A DNA stretch of 64,000 nt from Candidatus Eiseniibacteriota bacterium (GCA_963762255.1 CAVXKA010000001.1:1391222-1455221), one strand, 5' to 3'. Positions 26,103 to 35,194 are shown, counted from the first letter of the stretch. The notes: a model not told the origin generated them from the sequence alone. A program made the numbers and translations.

Positions 26103-26645
26103 TCCCTCGTGCTCATGCCCGCAGAGCCGACTCACTTTTCTTTCCCGCGCCGGAGGGGACTCAACCACGAACGGTGTCACCTCGTGCAGGTGGGGTACTC
26201 CTGATCCTCCTGGTTGGTGCACGCGGTGCTCGCTGGCCCGGAAAGATTGGACCTGTGGAGGCACTGGGTGCTCTGGCGGGACTCAGACCTCCGTGCCTTT
26301 CGCCCTTCCGCCTCATCTTCGCGATGCTCCTCCCCGGCCCGCCTCGGCACTGGGGGGTGGGCATCTCGAAGGGCTTTCTCGTCATGGGACGAGGAAGTTG
26401 TAAACGCCGGTCGAAAACCGCGGCGTCGCATGCCGCCGACCGTCAGGTTCGTGCCCCTTCGAAACCAGTGGCGAAGGTATAGTTGGCTGTGGAGCAAGGA
26501 GTTAGATCCGTTTGCCATGTAAGTGAGGCGCGTGGTGTACCAGCGTGCATCCTCTGCTGCAGCTCACCGCCGGCCGCCTACAGCAGACTGGTTCATCGCC
26601 ATTCGGCCTCATTGGGGTACACTGCGGCCATCCCCGTATGGAGCA

Positions 26646-29600
26646 ATGATGGCCGCGGATCTCATTCCATGGATCAGATACTGGCGTCGTGATGAAACGG
26701 TAGTTCCACTGCCCGCCAGCGGGTTTCTCTCACAAGAGATGCTCGCTCAAGCCGCGAGTACGGGTGCCGTCTCGACGCTTCGAGAGTTGACGGATGTTCC
26801 CTGCTTGATCTTGTTGGGTGAACCCGGGCTCGGCAAGACGCGGCTTATCCAACAGGAGGAGCGGGATCTCGCGGCCATGCTCGTGCCTGCGGACGAATCG
26901 CGGTACCTAGACCTCGGCGCCTATAGCAACGAGGCACGACTATGGGATGCCCTCGCGCAAGGCACGCGAACGGACCCAGCGCCCCATGTTCTGCATCTCT
27001 TTCTCGACAGCTTTGACGAGTGCCAGTCGCGCATCCCGAACCTTGGTCGACTAGTCGTTCAGTTTCTGCGTGACCATCGAACCTACCTCCCGCGGCTGCG
27101 ACTCCGGATCGCCTCTCGGACATTGGACTGGCCCAGGACCTTGGAGGAGGATCTGCGAGTCCTTTGGGACCGCGGGCAGGTGGGTCTTTATCATCTCCTC
27201 CCGCTGACGCAGGAAGACGTGCGGCTCGCGGCCGAGGCGGCAAGCCTCAACCCTAACGCCTTCCTTCAGGAGATCCAGGCCTTCCGGGCAGAACCGCTTG
27301 CCGCGACTCCTCTCACGCTGAACATGCTCCTCAACGTCTATTGCCAGACCGGAACGCTCGGTGGGAGTCAGGCGGAGTTGTTTGAGAATGGCTGCCTGCA
27401 TCTTCTCGAGGAATCGCACCGGGCAGGAGGGGTTGATCGCAGTCCGTTGGCGACACAAGACCGATTGGAGATAGCGACTCGGATCGGGGCCATGCTCCTG
27501 TTCTGTGGAAGGGTGGCGGTCCAGATGGGTGCGGCATCCATCGATTCCGGCAGTGAGGACTTGCGGCTCACCGAAATCCAGGGCGGGCATGAAGAAGCCG
27601 ATGGTCGGAAGGTTGCCGTGACGCCCGAAGCGGTCGCGGACGCCCTCAAGTCCGGCTTGTTCGTCGGCGTGGATGACCGGCGCGTGGTTGCCCAACACAA
27701 GTCATTCACCGAGTTCCTGGCCGCCCGGTTCCTCACCAAGCGCGGGTTGAAACCCGAGGAGGCGCTCGGTTGCGTCACCTGCAAGGTGGGGAAGAAGCAC
27801 ACCTATGTGGTTCCGCAACTGGCCCCCGTGGCGTCGTGGCTTGCGAATCTGGACGGAGCGATACTGGACAGACTCGTCGACCTTGAGCCTCAAGTTGTTC
27901 TCCAGAGTGACAGTAGGCTCCTTGACGACAATGAGCGGGCCAGGCTTGTCGACGCGTTGTTGGGGCAGCTCAAGGCCGGTGAGCGCGAGCAGTTGCACCC
28001 CGAGATGGGGATGTATCTTCAACGCTTGCGGCATCCTGGTCTGGCGGAACAACTCCGTCCGACGATTGTGGATCACGACAATCAGTGGCCAGCTCGCGCA
28101 GCAGCCATCGAGATTGCCGAAGCGTGTGTCGCGCATAATCTCCAGGACGCCCTCGTCACCGTGGCCCTTGGGAAAGATGAGATCCAGCATCTGCGTCTGC
28201 TCGCGACCCATGCTCTGGCCACCGTCGGGGATGAGAGGCATCTAGTCAGGCTGCTCCCGCTGGCCACCGGGGGCGCTGGCGATGATCCCCTGGATGATCT
28301 GCGCGCCAGAGCACTGCGTACCCTGCGTGGAAGGGGGTTGCTCCGAGGAGATGATCTCTTCGTTTGTATCACGCTTCCAAGCCGCCCGCAGCTCCTCGGC
28401 TCCTACGCGTTCTACCTCATGCACGACTTGCCGGAGAGTCTTGAGGCGGCAGAGTTGCCAGCCGCGTTGAGATGGGCAATAGGGATGAGTGACAGGGCGA
28501 AACTGCCCCATGCTATTGGCGAACTGATCCAGACGATTCTCCAACGCGCTGCTGATTCTCCCGCGAGCCTTGAATCGGAGATGGCTCTCGTCGTTTCCAA
28601 CTGCATCAAGAATGGGACCGAACTGAAGCTCTCAATCGAAGGGCCTCGACGGCGGGCGGTTCTTGAGGATGCCATCCACAGGGTACCCGGCAGGGGGGCC
28701 GACTTCTACTACCTCAGGCGCCTGCTAACCGACGAAGATACTGGCTGGATCTCAGACTGCGCGGCGAACGTCGTGACCGGGGACGAGGCGGACAAGTGGT
28801 TCGTGCTGGTCCGCTCGCTCATGCGCGACGGGGAGGCAAGGTCATCTGACGAAGTGATCCAGCTTGTTGCGACCAATCCGCTAATGGCGGCGAAGTTCAG
28901 GGCATGGGTGGAGCCTGTCGAGCTTGAATCGCCAGAGGCAAAACGGCGCCGCGCTGACTACCTTGAGCTTCTGAATTGGGAGCGCGACTCCAAGGCAGAG
29001 GAACCAAGGCAGGCAACGCTCGAGGAAGTGGATGCTTGTCTGGCCCGGGTCCTGGATCGACAGGAATCAGAGGGATTCAACGCGCTGTTGCGCCTGCTCG
29101 AACTTCAAGATGACGGGGGGACTCCAGGACCGATTCCTGAACTCGATCCGGAGGAAATGGACGGGTGGCATCAACTGGATGACGATCGGCGAGAGCGGGT
29201 TAGGTTGGCCGCCGGTGCCTACCTACGCAAGGTAAGTCTGGCGCCGAGCGATTGGGATCAAGGAGTCGTCCCGATCGGTGTGGATGGCTACCGTGCGCTA
29301 GTCCTCTTAGGAAAGGACCCCAGGACACTTGGGGGCTTACCCGAGAGGGTGTGGACAGCTTGGTGTCCCGTCATCCTGCGCCTGTCGCCGCTCGGCATCG
29401 GCCGCGGCGAGGCGCACACCCGAGTCCTTCAAGGGGTCGCGAGCGTTGCGAGAGAGGCGTTCGGTGAGGTCGTGCGGGGAATGGTCATGCGAGCGCGTGG
29501 CCAAGGTCGCGATGTCACCCAGCTCTTGGTGCTCAAGTCATGCTGGAACGAAGAGTTGGGTCAGGTTTTGCTCGACCTCGCCCACGATAAGGAGACCCAC

Positions 29601-30665
29601 GGTCAGACGCTGCGCAGGGTGCTGGGCATCCTGCTTGAGAATGGGTATCCCAGAGCTGAAGACATTGCGATCAAGGAATTGAAGTACTGGCGATCGAAGG
29701 ACCCTGTGCCCAGGTCGATTGTGGCTGCTGCTGCTCTCCTGATGGACGGCGGGGGTCAAGCTTGGGGCGCAGTGATTCAGGTCGTGAAGGCTCACGCGAA
29801 TTGGGGAAAGAAACTGATGGCGTTCCTGTCGCAGAGCGCCTCCGGTCTCGACGTGGCTGTACCAGCCGACATGGATGAGGAGTCCCTCGCGGATCTCTAC
29901 TTGTGGTTGGGGCGGCACTTTGCGCAGGGGGATGAACCAGTTGCAGAAGGAGTCTCCGCCGATCCTTCAAGGATTGCTATTAGCCACTTCCGCGATCGGC
30001 TCTTGCGGAGCCTCCAGACCCAAGGTACAGAGGCGAGCGTGGAGGAGCTGGGGCGAATCGCAGATGAACTTCCTGATCACGAATGGGTGAGACTCATGGG
30101 AGTCGAGGCAAGGAGAATGGTGGCCGCCCGCGCTTGGGCCCCCCTCGCACCTGAAGCGGTTCTACGAATTGGCCGGAGAGGGTCTGATTCCGCGCTGGAG
30201 TCCGCCACTTGCCCGGTCGGCACACGCGCTAGTCTCCCGCTAGCTGGGTCTCCGTGCTGGGAGCTCCCGGGGCTAAAGTGGTCTGAGATCAGCATGGACT
30301 TCCTTGACGGTGAGACGGTCAGGATTCGCGCCCAGCACCTGGACTTGCGGGCGACGTTCGCTGAGATGGGATTCAAGGATGGTCGCAGTGCCCGCCCGAA
30401 CGCCAAGTGGCTCCTCCTGCAGGAGATCGCTGACAATAACGGATTCCTGCCCGGCGGGCGGGGGAAGAACCGGGCGGCGGAGAGACAGCGGAAGCACAAG
30501 CTAACCGAGCTACTAATGCAGTATTTCCGTGCCGAAGGGGATCCATTTGGGCTCTACGTCCGGAATCAAGGCTGGGAAGTTCAATTCAAAATCCGGCCCG
30601 AAGCGGGGAGGGGTGATTACTCACCCCCCCGGCGGATCCTTCCGAGCGAGATTGATGAAGATTGA
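26646..30665 (+). CDS. STAND/NACHT NTPase with long helical-repeat region and a distinct ~110 aa C-terminal domain (track start 26523)
   Basis: Walker A LILLGEPGLGKT, Walker B LFLDSFDE, RIASR, TPLTLNML, HKSFTEFLAA; C-terminal WSEISMDFLDG...EMGFKDGR...W.LL...GDPF...WEVQFKI; GGAG before ATG 26646. Confidence 0.8.
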   Translation: MMAADLIPWIRYWRRDETVVPLPASGFLSQEMLAQAASTGAVSTLRELTDVPCLILLGEPGLGKTRLIQQEERDLAAMLVPADESRYLDLGAYSNEARLWDALAQGTRTDPAPHVLHLFLDSFDECQSRIPNLGRLVVQFLRDHRTYLPRLRLRIASRTLDWPRTLEEDLRVLWDRGQVGLYHLLPLTQEDVRLAAEAASLNPNAFLQEIQAFRAEPLAATPLTLNMLLNVYCQTGTLGGSQAELFENGCLHLLEESHRAGGVDRSPLATQDRLEIATRIGAMLLFCGRVAVQMGAASIDSGSEDLRLTEIQGGHEEADGRKVAVTPEAVADALKSGLFVGVDDRRVVAQHKSFTEFLAARFLTKRGLKPEEALGCVTCKVGKKHTYVVPQLAPVASWLANLDGAILDRLVDLEPQVVLQSDSRLLDDNERARLVDALLGQLKAGEREQLHPEMGMYLQRLRHPGLAEQLRPTIVDHDNQWPARAAAIEIAEACVAHNLQDALVTVALGKDEIQHLRLLATHALATVGDERHLVRLLPLATGGAGDDPLDDLRARALRTLRGRGLLRGDDLFVCITLPSRPQLLGSYAFYLMHDLPESLEAAELPAALRWAIGMSDRAKLPHAIGELIQTILQRAADSPASLESEMALVVSNCIKNGTELKLSIEGPRRRAVLEDAIHRVPGRGADFYYLRRLLTDEDTGWISDCAANVVTGDEADKWFVLVRSLMRDGEARSSDEVIQLVATNPLMAAKFRAWVEPVELESPEAKRRRADYLELLNWERDSKAEEPRQATLEEVDACLARVLDRQESEGFNALLRLLELQDDGGTPGPIPELDPEEMDGWHQLDDDRRERVRLAAGAYLRKVSLAPSDWDQGVVPIGVDGYRALVLLGKDPRTLGGLPERVWTAWCPVILRLSPLGIGRGEAHTRVLQGVASVAREAFGEVVRGMVMRARGQGRDVTQLLVLKSCWNEELGQVLLDLAHDKETHGQTLRRVLGILLENGYPRAEDIAIKELKYWRSKDPVPRSIVAAAALLMDGGGQAWGAVIQVVKAHANWGKKLMAFLSQSASGLDVAVPADMDEESLADLYLWLGRHFAQGDEPVAEGVSADPSRIAISHFRDRLLRSLQTQGTEASVEELGRIADELPDHEWVRLMGVEARRMVAARAWAPLAPEAVLRIGRRGSDSALESATCPVGTRASLPLAGSPCWELPGLKWSEISMDFLDGETVRIRAQHLDLRATFAEMGFKDGRSARPNAKWLLLQEIADNNGFLPGGRGKNRAAERQRKHKLTELLMQYFRAEGDPFGLYVRNQGWEVQFKIRPEAGRGDYSPPRRILPSEIDED

Positions 30666-30757
30666 GTTGATTGCTGCTCAAGTACTTATGAATTCACTCT
30701 GATCTTTTTCTCCGCCCGAAACCCGCCCAGCGTGACTTCTAACCGCCTCCCTATGAA

Positions 30758-31096
30758 ATGACCGATGAACGGTTCGGGAAGTCAACCAGCCTCGACAGCA
30801 AGCGCGCAAAGCTCACGCTGAGCCGCTGCGTCGGGCATCTGGATGAGGTAGGAGACAACTGGCCCCAGGTTCAGCTGATGCTGACGAAGCTAGTTGCTCG
30901 TGCAGCGCTGGCGAGGTGCTCCCCGAATCGAGAGTGTTCATCCGAGGCCGAAGCGGCACATTCCGGGCCGTCCGCGGCCGCCGCGGCGGTGACGGGCGCT
31001 CCACCCGCAAGCGTGGGCGGCCCGGGATCAATTGGAGAATCGGAGCATGAACGAACTCTTGAACAGCGCCCTCGCGCACTTGAACCTGACCGGTAA
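30758..31096 (+). CDS. Small hypothetical protein upstream of the primase
   Basis: ATG ORF in the position where such elements often carry a small replication/excision gene; no motif recognised. Confidence 0.3.
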   Translation: MTDERFGKSTSLDSKRAKLTLSRCVGHLDEVGDNWPQVQLMLTKLVARAALARCSPNRECSSEAEAAHSGPSAAAAAVTGAPPASVGGPGSIGESEHERTLEQRPRALEPDR

Positions 31097-33454
31097 GAGA
31101 ACCCCTGACGGTCGGCACATTGCCTGGTGCCCATTCCATCCCGATGGGCAGGGGACGCCGCCGCATCAGGCGAATCTCCTGGTCTCCGACCGGGGCTTCA
31201 TTTGCCACGCATGCGGGGCGCAAGGAAGTCTTCGGGACTTAGCGGGGCGGTTGGAGATTCCGACCAGCGCCGCAGAAGTGGTCTACGTCTACCAGGACGC
31301 TGACGGCAATGACAAGTTCCGGATCGTCCGGCGGGCCGGCAAGAAGTTCTCAGTTCAACATCGCAACAAGAGCGGTGGATGGAGCAAGGGCCTCGGGCCT
31401 GCCGTCCGTGTCATCTACCGGCTGCCCGAGATCCTGAAGTCCGAGTCCAACGTCCCGGTCTTCATTGTTGAGGGCGAGAAGGACGCTGACCGACTCGCTG
31501 CGAATGGCCGCATCGCCACCACCAACCCCTTTGGTGCCGGCAAGTGGCGGCCTGAGTACAACGAGCCGCTGCGGGATCGCAACGTGATCATCATCCCCGA
31601 CAACGATGAGGCGGGTCGAAACCACGCCATAGTCGTCGCGCAGTCCCTCACTGGGGTGGCCAAGTCCATCAAGGTCGTTGCGTTGCCAGACCTCGACGAG
31701 AAAGGTGACGTTTCGGACTGGCTGAATGCTGGTCACACGATCGAGGACCTCGACCGCGTGGTCGAGGCATCTCCCGTCTGGACAGCGGACGAAGGAGAAG
31801 AAGCTTCGCCGATGGGGGTCCGCGACGGCGACCCGAAAGACCTCGTGCGGACGCTCCTGGACGAGGGCATCGAGCTGTTCCACGACCAATTCAAGGTTCC
31901 CCACGCCCGGGTTCCCGTGGATGGACATTGGGAGAACTGCGCTCTGGGGGATTTCGGCTTCAAGCGGTGGGCGGCTCTCCGATACTACGAACGCACCGGG
32001 AAGATGCTGCAACGAGACAAGTTCAGCGCAGCCCTGCTCGTGCTCGAGGCCAAGGCTGCCAACGAAGCGCCCCAGCGAGAACTTCACACTCGCGTAGCCA
32101 ACTTCGAAGGCGCGATCTGGTACGACTTGTCCGATCGGGACTGGAGATGCGTGCGCATTGCGCCGGATGGTTGGGAAGTCGTCTCTGACCCGCCGATCCT
32201 CTTCCGGCGGTGGCCTCACCAGCAGCCGCAGGTCGAGCCTGTCCGCGGTGGATCCCTCGGGAACATCTTCAACTTCTTGCCCCTGTCGCGAGCGGAGTGG
32301 GAGACGTTGCTTCTGCCCTACCTGGTGGCCTGTCTGGTGCCTGACATCCCGCATCCAATCCTAGCTACGTTTGGCCCGAACGGCGCCGGGAAGAGCACGA
32401 TCAGTCGCATCTTCAAGATCTTGATCGACCCGTCCACGCTGGCAACTCTGGCCTTTGGAACTGACCAAGCGGGACTCGTTCAGCAACTCTCTCACCACTA
32501 CTACGCGTGCTATGACAACGTGTCGGCGCTCCCGGATTGGGCGAGCGACTTCCTGTGCCGAGCATCTACTGGAGAGGGATTCACGAAGCGCGGTCTGTAC
32601 ACGAACGACGAGGACTTCATCTACGCCTACCGGCGCTGCGCGAGTCTCAACGGGCTGAACCTCGTCGTTCTGAAGCCCGACCTGCTGGATCGAACGATCC
32701 TGGTGCACGTGGAAGGGATCGGAAAGACGGAACGGCGGGAGGAGAAGGAGTTCTGGACGCAATTCGAGAGCGTGAGAGCCCGGCTTCTGGGAGCGGTCTT
32801 CGACGCGCTGAGCGTCGCCATGAAGGTCAAGACTGCTCAGAAGCACAAGGATCTTCCCCGCATGGCCGACTTCGCGGCGTGGGGAGCCGCTGCCGCCGAA
32901 GCCATCGGCATTGGCAGCCAGACCTTCCTGGACCACTACGCTCGCGACGAGGGCGCCCGCATCGAGGAGCTGATCTGCGAGGACCCTCTGGCACTGGCGA
33001 TCGTTGAACTCGTGCGGGCTCGGGGGTCATGGAGTGGCCTCGCGAGCGAGCTTCTCAAGGAAGTGAAGAGGTGGGGCCACATGGAGAACGCCGACCAGCA
33101 CGATGCCCGTTGGCCCAAGACCCCCAATCGCCTGTCCGCCCGACTGAACGAACTTCAGGCCAGTCTGGGCAAGGCCGGGGTGGAGTACCGCGGTCGTCGG
33201 ACCAACCAGGGGAAGTGGATCGATCTTCGCCCCCTCGACGTGCCCGCTAGCCCAGGAACGCCCGGCAAGGACGGTGACGGTCTTCGTGGGGGATCGTCAC
33301 CTCGAACTGCGGGGGGATCGTCACTCCGTAACAAGTTGACTGGCAACGTGTTAAGCGGTAACTGTGGTTTGAGTGACGATGATGACGATCCTTCTGCCCC
33401 CACTGGTGGCTCGGCTTCACGCAGCGACTCACCCCGGATGGGGGCCTTGGGGAA

Positions 33455-33458
<4 letters not shown>
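31047..33458 (+). CDS. DNA primase-helicase (CHC2-type Zn finger, Toprim, P-loop)
   Basis: CPFH...CHAC; VFIVEGEKDADRL; IIPDNDEAG; GPNGAGKST; GGAG before ATG 31047. Confidence 0.85.
33274..33392. repeat. Iteron-like repeat array (candidate origin) in the primase 3' end
   Basis: GTGACGGT 33274, ATCGTCAC 33293 and 33317, an AT-richer spacer, then inverted GTGACGAT 33373 and ATGACGAT 33382. Confidence 0.6.

Positions 33459-35194
<1,736 letters not shown>

What the first reader, a model, noticed from the sequence alone, without database searches (positions are those of the whole stretch)
26646..30665. STAND NTPase with no N-terminal effector but a regulator-like C-terminal domain, sitting just upstream of the primase
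Seen: Walker A begins about 55 residues in, followed by about 900 aa of helical repeats and a compact terminal domain. Established: Avs1-3 STAND sensors detect phage large terminase and Avs4 the portal, via N-terminal effectors. Inference: either a new antiphage STAND whose output is C-terminal, or a phage-sensing transcriptional switch that induces this element. Co-residence with the element's own TerL makes the ligand question pointed.
Basis: partly seen in the sequence, partly recalled or inferred. Interest (0 to 1): 0.68.

Follow-up and report, generated by a model that had tools for sequence, protein, structure and literature searches.

The report
Phage-sensor NTPase fused to island regulator domain
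A bacterial immune-type sensor protein (a relative of receptors reported to detect phage capsid protein) has lost its DNA-cutting tail and is fused to a small, uncharacterised domain that normally ends the first gene of the replication cassette in related mobile islands, so it may let this capsid-less island start copying itself when a helper phage arrives.

Summary
The ORF is real: 26646-30665, 1339 aa, with intact Walker A, NACHT-type Walker B (DSFDE) and sensor-1 Arg. It is a distant relative of the antiphage NACHT proteins Erebus/Hypnos (Avs10; NCBIfam EruA, E 9e-49).

Its homologues are collinear up to aa ~1178. They then carry a C-terminal PD-(D/E)xK-like domain and sit in defence islands. 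In the window that tail is replaced by a basic ~115-aa domain (aa 1208-1320).

This domain defines a large uncharacterised family: 1787 cluster representatives, no Pfam, PDB or BFVD match. It is almost always the extreme C-terminus of otherwise variable proteins.

These proteins sit at the head of replication modules of serine-recombinase mobile elements. Sibling elements share the window's integrase (61% aa), small ORF and structured leader. In the same slot they carry a 291-379-aa domain protein or an XRE/Stl-like repressor.

Best reading (about 0.4): a phage-protein-gated, MalT-like switch for the island's primase cassette. Rivals are a defence STAND with a non-enzymatic effector, or an accidental fusion. 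DNA binding is not shown, and the fusion is a singleton.

The parts
26646..30665 (+). Whole ORF, 1339 aa: a chimeric NACHT STAND NTPase plus island regulator-slot domain
   Evidence: the self hit P0003 is the only full-length match among 5.8 billion clusters
26646..30179 (+). Erebus/Hypnos-like part (aa 1-1178): NTPase, helical/winged-helix region and helical sensor
   Evidence: NCBIfam EruA E 9e-49 and HyoA 1.5e-35; 28-31% identity to P0004-P0019 over aa 8 to ~1190
26817..26840 (+). Walker A, GEPGLGKT (aa 58-65)
   Evidence: conserved as GEPGxGK[ST] in the homologues
26997..27020 (+). Walker B, LFLDSFDE (aa 118-125); fits the NACHT signature D[GAS]hDE
   Evidence: signature definition from bioRxiv 10.1101/2022.07.19.500537
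30180..30266 (+). Junction and linker (aa 1179-1207). Homology to STAND relatives ends at WAPLAPEAVLRIG (aa 1164-1176), just before the first helix of their nuclease domain. From aa ~1190 the sequence aligns with the linker of P0025.
30267..30605 (+). C-terminal ~115-aa basic domain (aa 1208-1320): three beta strands, a helix, a long helix with a basic N-terminal end, then a beta hairpin/sheet. It is followed by a short tail, RPEAGRGDYSPPRRI, shared with P0025.
   Evidence: 1787 representatives at E<1e-3; alignment A1; AF2 pLDDT 93; pI 9.4
30758..31096 (+). Small ORF (112 aa), conserved in sibling elements; its end overlaps the primase start
   Evidence: 40% aa identity to the L111 small ORF; homologues in 11 metagenome loci; variation at third codon positions
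30961..31027 (+). Conserved GC-rich structured leader about 20 nt before the primase RBS, containing the 12-bp palindrome CCGCCGCGGCGG
   Evidence: 80% nt identity to L111 although the primases are unrelated; 13 copies aligned; RNAalifold gives 26 pairs, 6 with compensatory changes; no Rfam match
31047..33458 (+). Toprim-type primase with a P-loop domain: the replication gene of the cassette
   Evidence: PHROG 6088/239/47, NCBIfam PRK07078; homologues follow the domain gene in L115, L119 and L122
33455..35161 (+). Large serine recombinase; its end overlaps tRNA-Met (35118-35194, minus strand)
   Evidence: Pfam Resolvase, Recombinase and Zn_ribbon_recom; tRNA; 61% aa identity to the L111 recombinase

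Best explanation
The gene encodes a chimera of two parts.

Part 1 (aa 1-1178) is an intact NACHT-type STAND NTPase with a helical sensor. It belongs to the Erebus/Hypnos (Avs10) group, whose members are reported to bind phage major capsid protein and then oligomerise.

Part 2 (aa 1208-1320) replaces the PD-(D/E)xK-like output domain of that group. It is a small basic domain that elsewhere forms the C-terminus of the first gene of the replication/early cassette of serine-recombinase mobile elements.

Proposed mechanism:
1. Shown: the island has TerS/TerL, a primase and an integrase.
2. Inferred: a helper-phage protein, most plausibly capsid protein, binds the sensor.
3. Inferred: ATP-dependent oligomerisation follows and clusters the C-terminal domains.
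4. Inferred: the clustered domains bind nucleic acid at the small-ORF/leader/primase cassette and switch on replication, and with it excision.

This would be MalT-like logic with an immune-receptor input. Homology, the domain swap, positional conservation and motif integrity are shown. The ligand, DNA/RNA binding and the regulatory outcome are inferred.
For: Family and domain swap:
- Family assignment and intact NTPase motifs.
- The homologues are collinear with the EruA profile end to end, tail included.
- Their tails have invariant E...D...ExK on an alpha-beta-beta-beta-alpha-beta core.
- In the window the swap occurs exactly at that domain boundary.

The new domain is intact:
- It scores 134 bits against the family profile and keeps all invariant residues.
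- It is basic: pI 9.4 against 6.0 for the N-terminal parts.
- It ends within 30 residues of the C-terminus in 139 of 149 representatives and is C-terminal in essentially all of about 60 genomic loci.

Position is conserved:
- The order domain gene, small ORF, primase is seen in L008, L009, L068 and L111 (Prim-Pol type) and in L115 and L122 (window-type primase).
- In larger elements the order is LexA-like repressor, 'up' gene, domain gene, small ORF, sigma factor, exonuclease, Sak4, helicase, primase.

Sibling elements:
- L111 shares the integrase (61% aa), and L111 and L115 share the small ORF and leader with the window. Their domain proteins are only 291 and 351 aa.
- In siblings L112, L114 and L120 the same slot holds an XRE-family HTH protein that matches SaPI Stl in the PDB.

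The window's gene must cover the domain's role:
- The genome has a single copy of the domain, so this gene is the island's only provider.

Homologues sit elsewhere:
- STAND homologues with nuclease tails lie in defence islands or an ICE, never before a primase.
Against: - No detectable similarity of the domain to any known DNA-binding fold.
- The fusion is a singleton. There is no second example among 22 STAND homologues, 149 domain representatives, about 75 loci and 40 related genomes, so selection on the fusion cannot be tested.
- The gene borders the island's cargo region (HNH nucleases, type ISP-like R-M), and satellites are known to carry STAND defence genes as cargo (PMC9122126).
- The sensor half is only 20-25% identical to relatives, so the ligand is a family-level guess.
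- No shared operator motif was found.
Confidence: 0.4

Rival explanations
1. It is an antiphage STAND carried as island cargo. Its nuclease effector was swapped for a non-enzymatic effector. After sensing a phage protein, the oligomer would use the clustered basic domains to coat or block DNA or replication, or to recruit a host factor, giving abortive infection or a replication block rather than island induction.
For: - It belongs to an experimentally antiphage family (NCBIfam EruA/HyoA; the Avs10 paper).
- Effector modules vary within the family: C-terminal PD-(D/E)xK-like domain, C-terminal metallophosphoesterase, N-terminal kinase.
- Surveys of bacterial NACHT proteins list C-terminal effectors and non-catalytic 'adaptor' or DNA-binding effectors.
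- The neighbours are defence-like cargo.
- Satellites carry STAND defences (PMC9122126).
Against: - The domain is not found in any listed defence-family model (PADLOC gives none).
- In about 70 loci it sits in the regulatory slot of replication cassettes, not in defence islands.
- Free-standing 117-133-aa versions exist without an obvious partner, which fits poorly with a toxic effector.
- The island has no other copy of the domain.
Confidence: 0.25
2. It is an accidental in-frame fusion. An Erebus-like cargo gene inserted next to the island's regulator gene, and a deletion then removed the nuclease domain together with the 5' part of the regulator gene (and any 'up' gene). The product would be inert, or would act as a constitutive, unregulated regulator, and the island may be decaying.
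For: - It is a singleton in all databases searched.
- The gene lies exactly at the border between cargo and core.
- Sibling elements have much shorter domain proteins.
Against: - The 4-kb ORF is uninterrupted, with all NTPase motifs and all invariant domain residues intact.
- Both breakpoints fall in inter-domain linkers.
- GC3 is uniform along the gene, 0.66-0.71.
- The primase, integrase and TerL ORFs are intact.
Confidence: 0.15
3. The terminal domain is a protein-protein or replication-initiation module, for example an origin-recognition or primase/small-protein docking domain, rather than a transcription factor. The STAND would then gate replication initiation directly.
For: - Constant adjacency to primase genes of three unrelated kinds (Toprim, Prim-Pol/D5_N, CHC2 plus a separate ATPase) and to the conserved small ORF.
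- No HTH signature.
Against: - Binding partners of unrelated primase types are unlikely to share one docking domain.
- In large elements the domain gene is followed by a sigma factor and lies kilobases from the primase.
- In siblings an XRE repressor occupies the same slot.
Confidence: 0.1

Closest known systems
Erebus (EruA) / Hypnos (HyoA) / bNACHT64 = Avs10 antiphage NACHT proteins
   Same: - NACHT NTPase plus helical sensor, with no N-terminal effector.
- Collinear over aa 40-768 with the EruA profile (E 9e-49), and over aa 8 to ~1190 with EruA-like homologues.
- The output module sits at the C-terminus.
   Different: - It scores 166 bits against an equivalog cut-off of 1000.
- The C-terminal PD-(D/E)xK-like domain is absent and replaced by an unrelated 115-aa basic domain.
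- The gene sits at the head of a replication cassette instead of in a defence island.
MalT / LAL-type, AfsR and GutR STAND transcription activators
   Same: Same logic: a STAND NTPase with a repeat sensor, where ligand- and ATP-driven oligomerisation brings DNA-binding output domains together. MalT also carries its output at the C-terminus (established knowledge; cited as refs 29-31 in the Avs paper).
   Different: - Different STAND clade (NACHT/Erebus-like rather than MalT or AP-ATPase).
- No LuxR- or SARP-type HTH was detected.
- The ligand is presumably a phage protein rather than a metabolite.
- DNA binding is unproven here.
Satellite induction switches (SaPI Stl repressor, PICI AlpA, PLE/P4 helper sensing)
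   Same: - The gene occupies the regulator slot in front of the primase/integrase of a capsid-less, terminase-bearing island.
- Sibling elements carry an XRE protein that matches Stl in the PDB (E 0.006).
- The proposed role is helper detection.
   Different: No known satellite uses a STAND NTPase as its helper sensor, and the mechanism proposed here is untested.
Bacterial NACHT proteins with C-terminal or 'adaptor' (wHTH/DNA-binding) effectors (Kibby et al., bioRxiv 10.1101/2022.07.19.500537)
   Same: C-terminal placement of the effector and non-catalytic output domains are both noted in that survey.
   Different: The domain here is not one of the listed families and has no Pfam model. Its home context is mobile-element replication cassettes.

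Membership tests
NACHT clade of STAND NTPases | Walker A GxxxxGK[ST], and Walker B with the D[GAS]hDE signature | tested here: met
   GEPGLGKT (aa 58-65) and LDSFDE (aa 120-125), both conserved in 13 homologues. The signature is as defined.
NACHT clade of STAND NTPases | Significant match to the Pfam NACHT model (PF05729) | tested here: not met
   E 0.18, 12 bits against a cut-off of 26.7. Assignment rests on NCBIfam models named 'NACHT domain-containing'.
Erebus EruA (NF058535, equivalog) | Full-length match at or above the 1000-bit curated cut-off | tested here: not met
   166.5 bits, covering profile positions 13-728 of 1318 only.
Erebus EruA (NF058535, equivalog) | C-terminal PD-(D/E)xK-like domain, as in the EruA-collinear homologues | tested here: not met
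   The homologues' tails have invariant E, D and ExK. The window's tail is unrelated.
Avs (antiviral STAND) sensing a phage protein | Phage-protein-triggered activity and protection | not testable with these tools
   Needs co-expression or infection assays. The ligand is inferred only from the family.
OmpR/PhoB-type winged helix (Trans_reg_C, PF00486) | Sequence-profile or fold similarity | tested here: not met
   - No Pfam hit at E<=10.
- hhalign of A1 against 13 response-regulator DNA-binding domains from the same phylum gives probability 1.9%.
- Foldseek: CadC 5ju7 at TM 0.43/0.46 with E 1.2; PhoP 9ket_J at TM 0.38/0.43 with E 2.0.
MalT/LAL STAND regulators | LuxR-type C-terminal HTH and a MalT-type NTPase | tested here: not met
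   No GerE/LuxR or MalT-related hit in Pfam or NCBIfam.
Effector-associated (homotypic adaptor) domains of conflict systems | A second copy of the same domain on a partner effector protein in the genome | tested here: not met
   Only one copy in the 94%-complete genome.
Phage satellite / PICI-like island | Integrase, replication gene and packaging genes, without capsid or tail genes, inserted at a tRNA | tested here: inconclusive
Serine recombinase, primase, TerS-like, TerL and tRNA-Met are confirmed.

The most novel reading that the evidence does not exclude
A phage satellite has co-opted an innate-immune pattern-recognition receptor (an Erebus/Avs10-type capsid sensor) as its helper-detection device. 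Its nuclease was replaced by the DNA/RNA-binding output domain of the island's own master regulator. Recognition of helper capsid protein would then switch on the island's primase/integrase cassette instead of killing the cell.
Probability: 0.3. Interest if true: 0.85.

Novelty: new variant of a known kind. Interest (0 to 1): 0.62.

Why it matters
If the leading reading holds, three things follow.

1. It would be the first case of a STAND/NLR-type immune receptor rewired from killing the infected cell to inducing a mobile element. That would link antiphage pattern recognition with the long-standing question of how satellites detect their helper.

2. It would give a function to a large protein family with no annotation. 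The family has 1787 cluster representatives across many phyla and marks the control slot of a widespread group of serine-recombinase elements and prophages.

3. It would explain how an island that carries its own TerL avoids self-triggering. Capsid protein is a helper-only signal.

Even under the defence reading, the gene adds a new non-enzymatic effector module to the Erebus/Avs10 family.

Tried and rejected
**Whole protein.** Pfam, PADLOC and PHROGs gave nothing significant. A PDB sequence search gave nothing.

**OmpR-like winged helix.** The sequence pattern suggested this to me. It was rejected as membership: hhalign 1.9%, and Foldseek TM<0.5 with E>1.

**Other fold and sequence searches for the domain.**
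- BFVD gave no match.
- A PDB profile search gave only noise.
- tblastn against INPHARED phages and PLSDB plasmids gave no match.
- The word-indexed homologue search with the domain alone gave nothing.

**Homotypic adaptor (EAD) idea.** Rejected, because the genome holds one copy only.

**Loci search.** The search for related loci with the broad alignment A1 failed. It worked with the tighter alignment A3.

**Nuclease tail of the homologues.** The Foldseek result was not significant. Restriction endonucleases appear only at E 0.07-0.4, so the PD-(D/E)xK call rests on motifs and topology.

**Operators and promoters.**
- No sigma-70-like promoter and no convincing terminator.
- Only a weak direct repeat, TATGAATTCAC/TATGAAATGAC.
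- The intergenic regions of siblings are too divergent to align.

**Other proteins of the cassette.**
- The 'up' protein and the N-terminal halves of the domain proteins gave no PDB, Pfam, NCBIfam or PHROG hit.
- A Pfam census of 149 family members found one stray QueC hit.

**Leader RNA.** Rfam gave no match.

**Literature.** Papers on EruA/HyoA by name were not found. The Avs10 effector is not described in the text held.

Full report
**1.

A single open frame runs 26523-30665 on the + strand. The ATG at 26646 follows a GGAG and gives a 1339-aa protein.

- Walker A (GEPGLGKT) is at aa 58-65.
- Walker B (LFLDSFDE) is at aa 118-125. It fits the NACHT signature D[GAS]hDE quoted in bioRxiv 10.1101/2022.07.19.500537.
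- A sensor-1-like motif, RLRIASRT, is at aa 152-159. All three motifs are conserved in 13 homologues.

The 45 residues before the P-loop align with the homologues, so there is no N-terminal effector.

Pfam, PADLOC and PHROGs give nothing significant. NCBIfam places the protein near the antiphage NACHT proteins:
- EruA (Erebus): E 9e-49, aa 40-768 against profile positions 13-728 of 1318, 166 bits against a cut-off of 1000.
- HyoA (Hypnos): E 1.5e-35.

A 2026 study equates Erebus/Hypnos/bNACHT64 with Avs10 and reports that it senses the phage major capsid protein (10.64898/2026.01.04.697583, also PMC13581612).

**2. A domain swap at the C-terminus**

Twenty-two homologues were found. They are 28-31% identical to aa 8 to ~1190. 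Each then continues with its own ~190-aa tail.

Evidence that those tails are PD-(D/E)xK-like:
- They align with each other with invariant E43, E68, D78, E101 and K103.
- AlphaFold2 models them (pLDDT 89) as an alpha-beta-beta-beta-alpha-beta core, with D78 before strand 2 and ExK in strand 3. This is the classical PD-(D/E)xK arrangement.
- Foldseek gives no significant hit. Several restriction endonucleases appear at E 0.07-0.4, so the nuclease call rests on motif and topology.
- Homologues P0012, P0004 and P0016 match the EruA profile from end to end, tail included. The family's output module is therefore C-terminal.

Other relatives carry different effectors: a C-terminal metallophosphoesterase or an N-terminal Ser/Thr kinase.

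In the window, homology stops at WAPLAPEAVLRIG (aa 1164-1176). This is immediately before the first helix of the nuclease domain in the homologues. After a linker comes an unrelated domain.

**3. The new domain**

A full HMMER scan with aa 1190-1339 found 1787 cluster representatives at E<1e-3 and 246 at E<1e-10.

- In 139 of the 149 listed representatives, the domain ends within 30 residues of the C-terminus. These proteins are 117-727 aa long, and many are ~345 aa.
- Essentially none has any Pfam domain, and none carries a source name beyond 'hypothetical'.
- With a 32-sequence alignment (A1), AlphaFold2 gives a confident model: pLDDT 93, pTM 0.84.
- The model shows three N-terminal strands, a helix (48-58), a long helix (70-89) with a conserved KKRK-like N-terminal end, and a C-terminal beta hairpin/sheet.

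Searches for a known fold failed:
- Foldseek finds nothing significant in the PDB or BFVD. The only whole-domain alignments are to OmpR-type winged helices: CadC at TM 0.43/0.46 and PhoP at TM 0.38/0.43, both with E>1.
- I tested the OmpR resemblance with a profile of 13 response-regulator DNA-binding domains from the same phylum. hhalign gave 1.9% probability.

The domain is therefore not a member of that family, and DNA binding is unproven.

Points in favour of nucleic-acid binding are weak. The median pI is 9.4 and the net charge is +4.6, against pI 6.0 for the N-terminal parts. The conserved basic positions lie on the long helix and on the hairpin. No conserved catalytic-type residues are present.

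The genome holds one copy only, which argues against a homotypic adaptor role.

**4. Position is conserved**

Within the phylum, 5 of 151 genomes carry the domain. Sixty-two further loci come from many other phyla.

In the larger elements the order is conserved:
- large serine recombinase
- LexA-like S24 repressor
- an unknown ~390-aa 'up' gene
- the domain gene (~345-375 aa)
- a ~110-aa small gene
- an ECF-like sigma factor
- a PD-(D/E)xK exonuclease
- Sak4/AAA_24
- helicase
- primase

Sometimes the 'up'-domain pair is transcribed divergently from the small-sigma operon.

In small elements the domain gene lies directly before a small ORF and a primase. Examples are L008, L009 and L068.

**5. 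Sibling elements of the window's island**

The closest relative of the window's domain is P0025 (43% identity, including the tail). It lies in L111 with this gene order:
- 291-aa domain protein
- 95-aa small ORF
- Prim-Pol/D5_N primase
- 64-aa ORF
- serine recombinase

What L111 shares with the window:
- The recombinase is 61% identical to the window's.
- The small ORF is 40% identical to window 30758-31096.
- An 84-bp stretch ending at the primase ATG is 80% identical at the DNA level. The two primases are unrelated.

A scan with this leader motif brought 11 more metagenome loci. Among them:
- L115 has a 351-aa domain protein, the small ORF, a window-type primase (E 9e-257) and a window-type recombinase (E 1.6e-239).
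- L122, L113, L121 and L117 have domain proteins of 303-379 aa in the same place.

In L112, L114 and L120 the same slot holds a ~100-124-aa XRE-type HTH protein plus a ~300-aa partner. The HTH protein matches XRE regulators and SaPI Stl in the PDB (E 3e-4 to 6e-3).

So the slot in front of the small ORF, leader and primase is a regulator slot. In the window it is filled by the STAND-domain fusion.

By contrast, the nuclease-tailed STAND homologues lie next to BREX, PLD, SIR2 or helicase genes, or inside an ICE. None lies before a primase.

No STAND homologue of this kind exists in 40 related genomes. No other family member exceeds ~730 aa. The fusion is therefore a singleton.

**6. Interpretation**

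The island carries TerS-like and TerL genes, methyltransferases, a type ISP-like R-M pair, a primase and a serine recombinase next to tRNA-Met.

The best-supported reading (about 0.4) has these steps:
1. The STAND part supplies a phage-protein input. It is most plausibly capsid protein, which the island itself does not make. This would avoid self-triggering by its own TerL.
2. Oligomerisation clusters the C-terminal domains.
3. The clustered domains act on the replication cassette.

This is MalT-like logic built from an immune receptor.

The rivals are:
- a defence protein with a new non-enzymatic effector (0.25)
- an accidental fusion (0.15)
- a protein-docking or replication-initiator role for the domain (0.1)

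Three observations argue against simple decay. The NTPase motifs and the invariant domain residues are intact. Both breakpoints lie in linkers. GC3 is uniform along the gene at 0.66-0.71.

**7. Limits**

- Ligand, nucleic-acid binding and regulatory outcome are all inferred.
- No operator motif could be defined.

Noticed in passing
window 30961-31027 (also L111-L122): A GC-rich structured element lies about 20 nt before the primase RBS and contains the palindrome CCGCCGCGGCGG. It is conserved in 13 sibling elements regardless of primase type or regulator type. RNAalifold predicts 26 pairs at -43.8 kcal/mol, and 6 pairs show compensatory double changes. There is no Rfam match. It lies inside the 3' end of the small ORF.
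   Followed up: partly
window 30758-31096: A small ORF (112 aa) is conserved in at least 12 sibling elements and has the C-terminal motif AAAAAV..APPA(S/N)xGGP. Variation falls on third codon positions, which suggests real coding. Its end overlaps the primase start. Function is unknown.
   Followed up: partly
window 31047 vs L111 5843 / L117: Non-homologous primase displacement exactly at the start codon. The window, L115, L119 and L122 have a Toprim-type primase. L111 and L117 have a Prim-Pol/PriCT/D5_N primase behind the same leader and in front of a 61%-identical serine recombinase.
   Followed up: partly
L014-L066 (e.g. L029, Syntrophus buswellii DM-2, NZ_CP175563.1 113232-127570): A widespread, apparently undescribed prophage-like element with a conserved early region: serine recombinase, LexA-like repressor, two unknown genes ('up' and the domain gene), a small gene, an ECF-like sigma factor, exonuclease, Sak4, helicase, primase. 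The domain is 60-69% identical between genomes labelled Planctomycetota, Bacteroidetes, Desulfobacterota, Nitrospiraceae, Zixibacteria, Fibrobacteraceae and others.
   Followed up: partly
L112 1729-3023, L114 505-1735, L120 7343-8642: In sibling elements that lack the domain gene, the same slot holds an XRE-family HTH protein followed by a ~300-aa unknown partner. The HTH protein's PDB matches include SaPI Stl.
   Followed up: partly
P0020, P0022 (homologues): Erebus-like relatives carry other effector modules: an N-terminal Ser/Thr kinase (P0020) and a C-terminal calcineurin-like phosphoesterase followed by a long extension (P0022). This shows effector shuffling at both ends of this STAND family.
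   Followed up: no
P0059, L050 5156-7345: The 'up' protein and the domain protein are fused into a single ~727-729-aa protein in some elements. This implies that the two gene products work together.
   Followed up: no
window 30666-30760: An AT-rich patch immediately after the STAND stop codon carries the direct repeat TATGAATTCAC / TATGAAATGAC, 65 bp apart. Other domain-bearing siblings also have an A-rich stretch right after the domain gene. It may be a promoter region.
   Followed up: no
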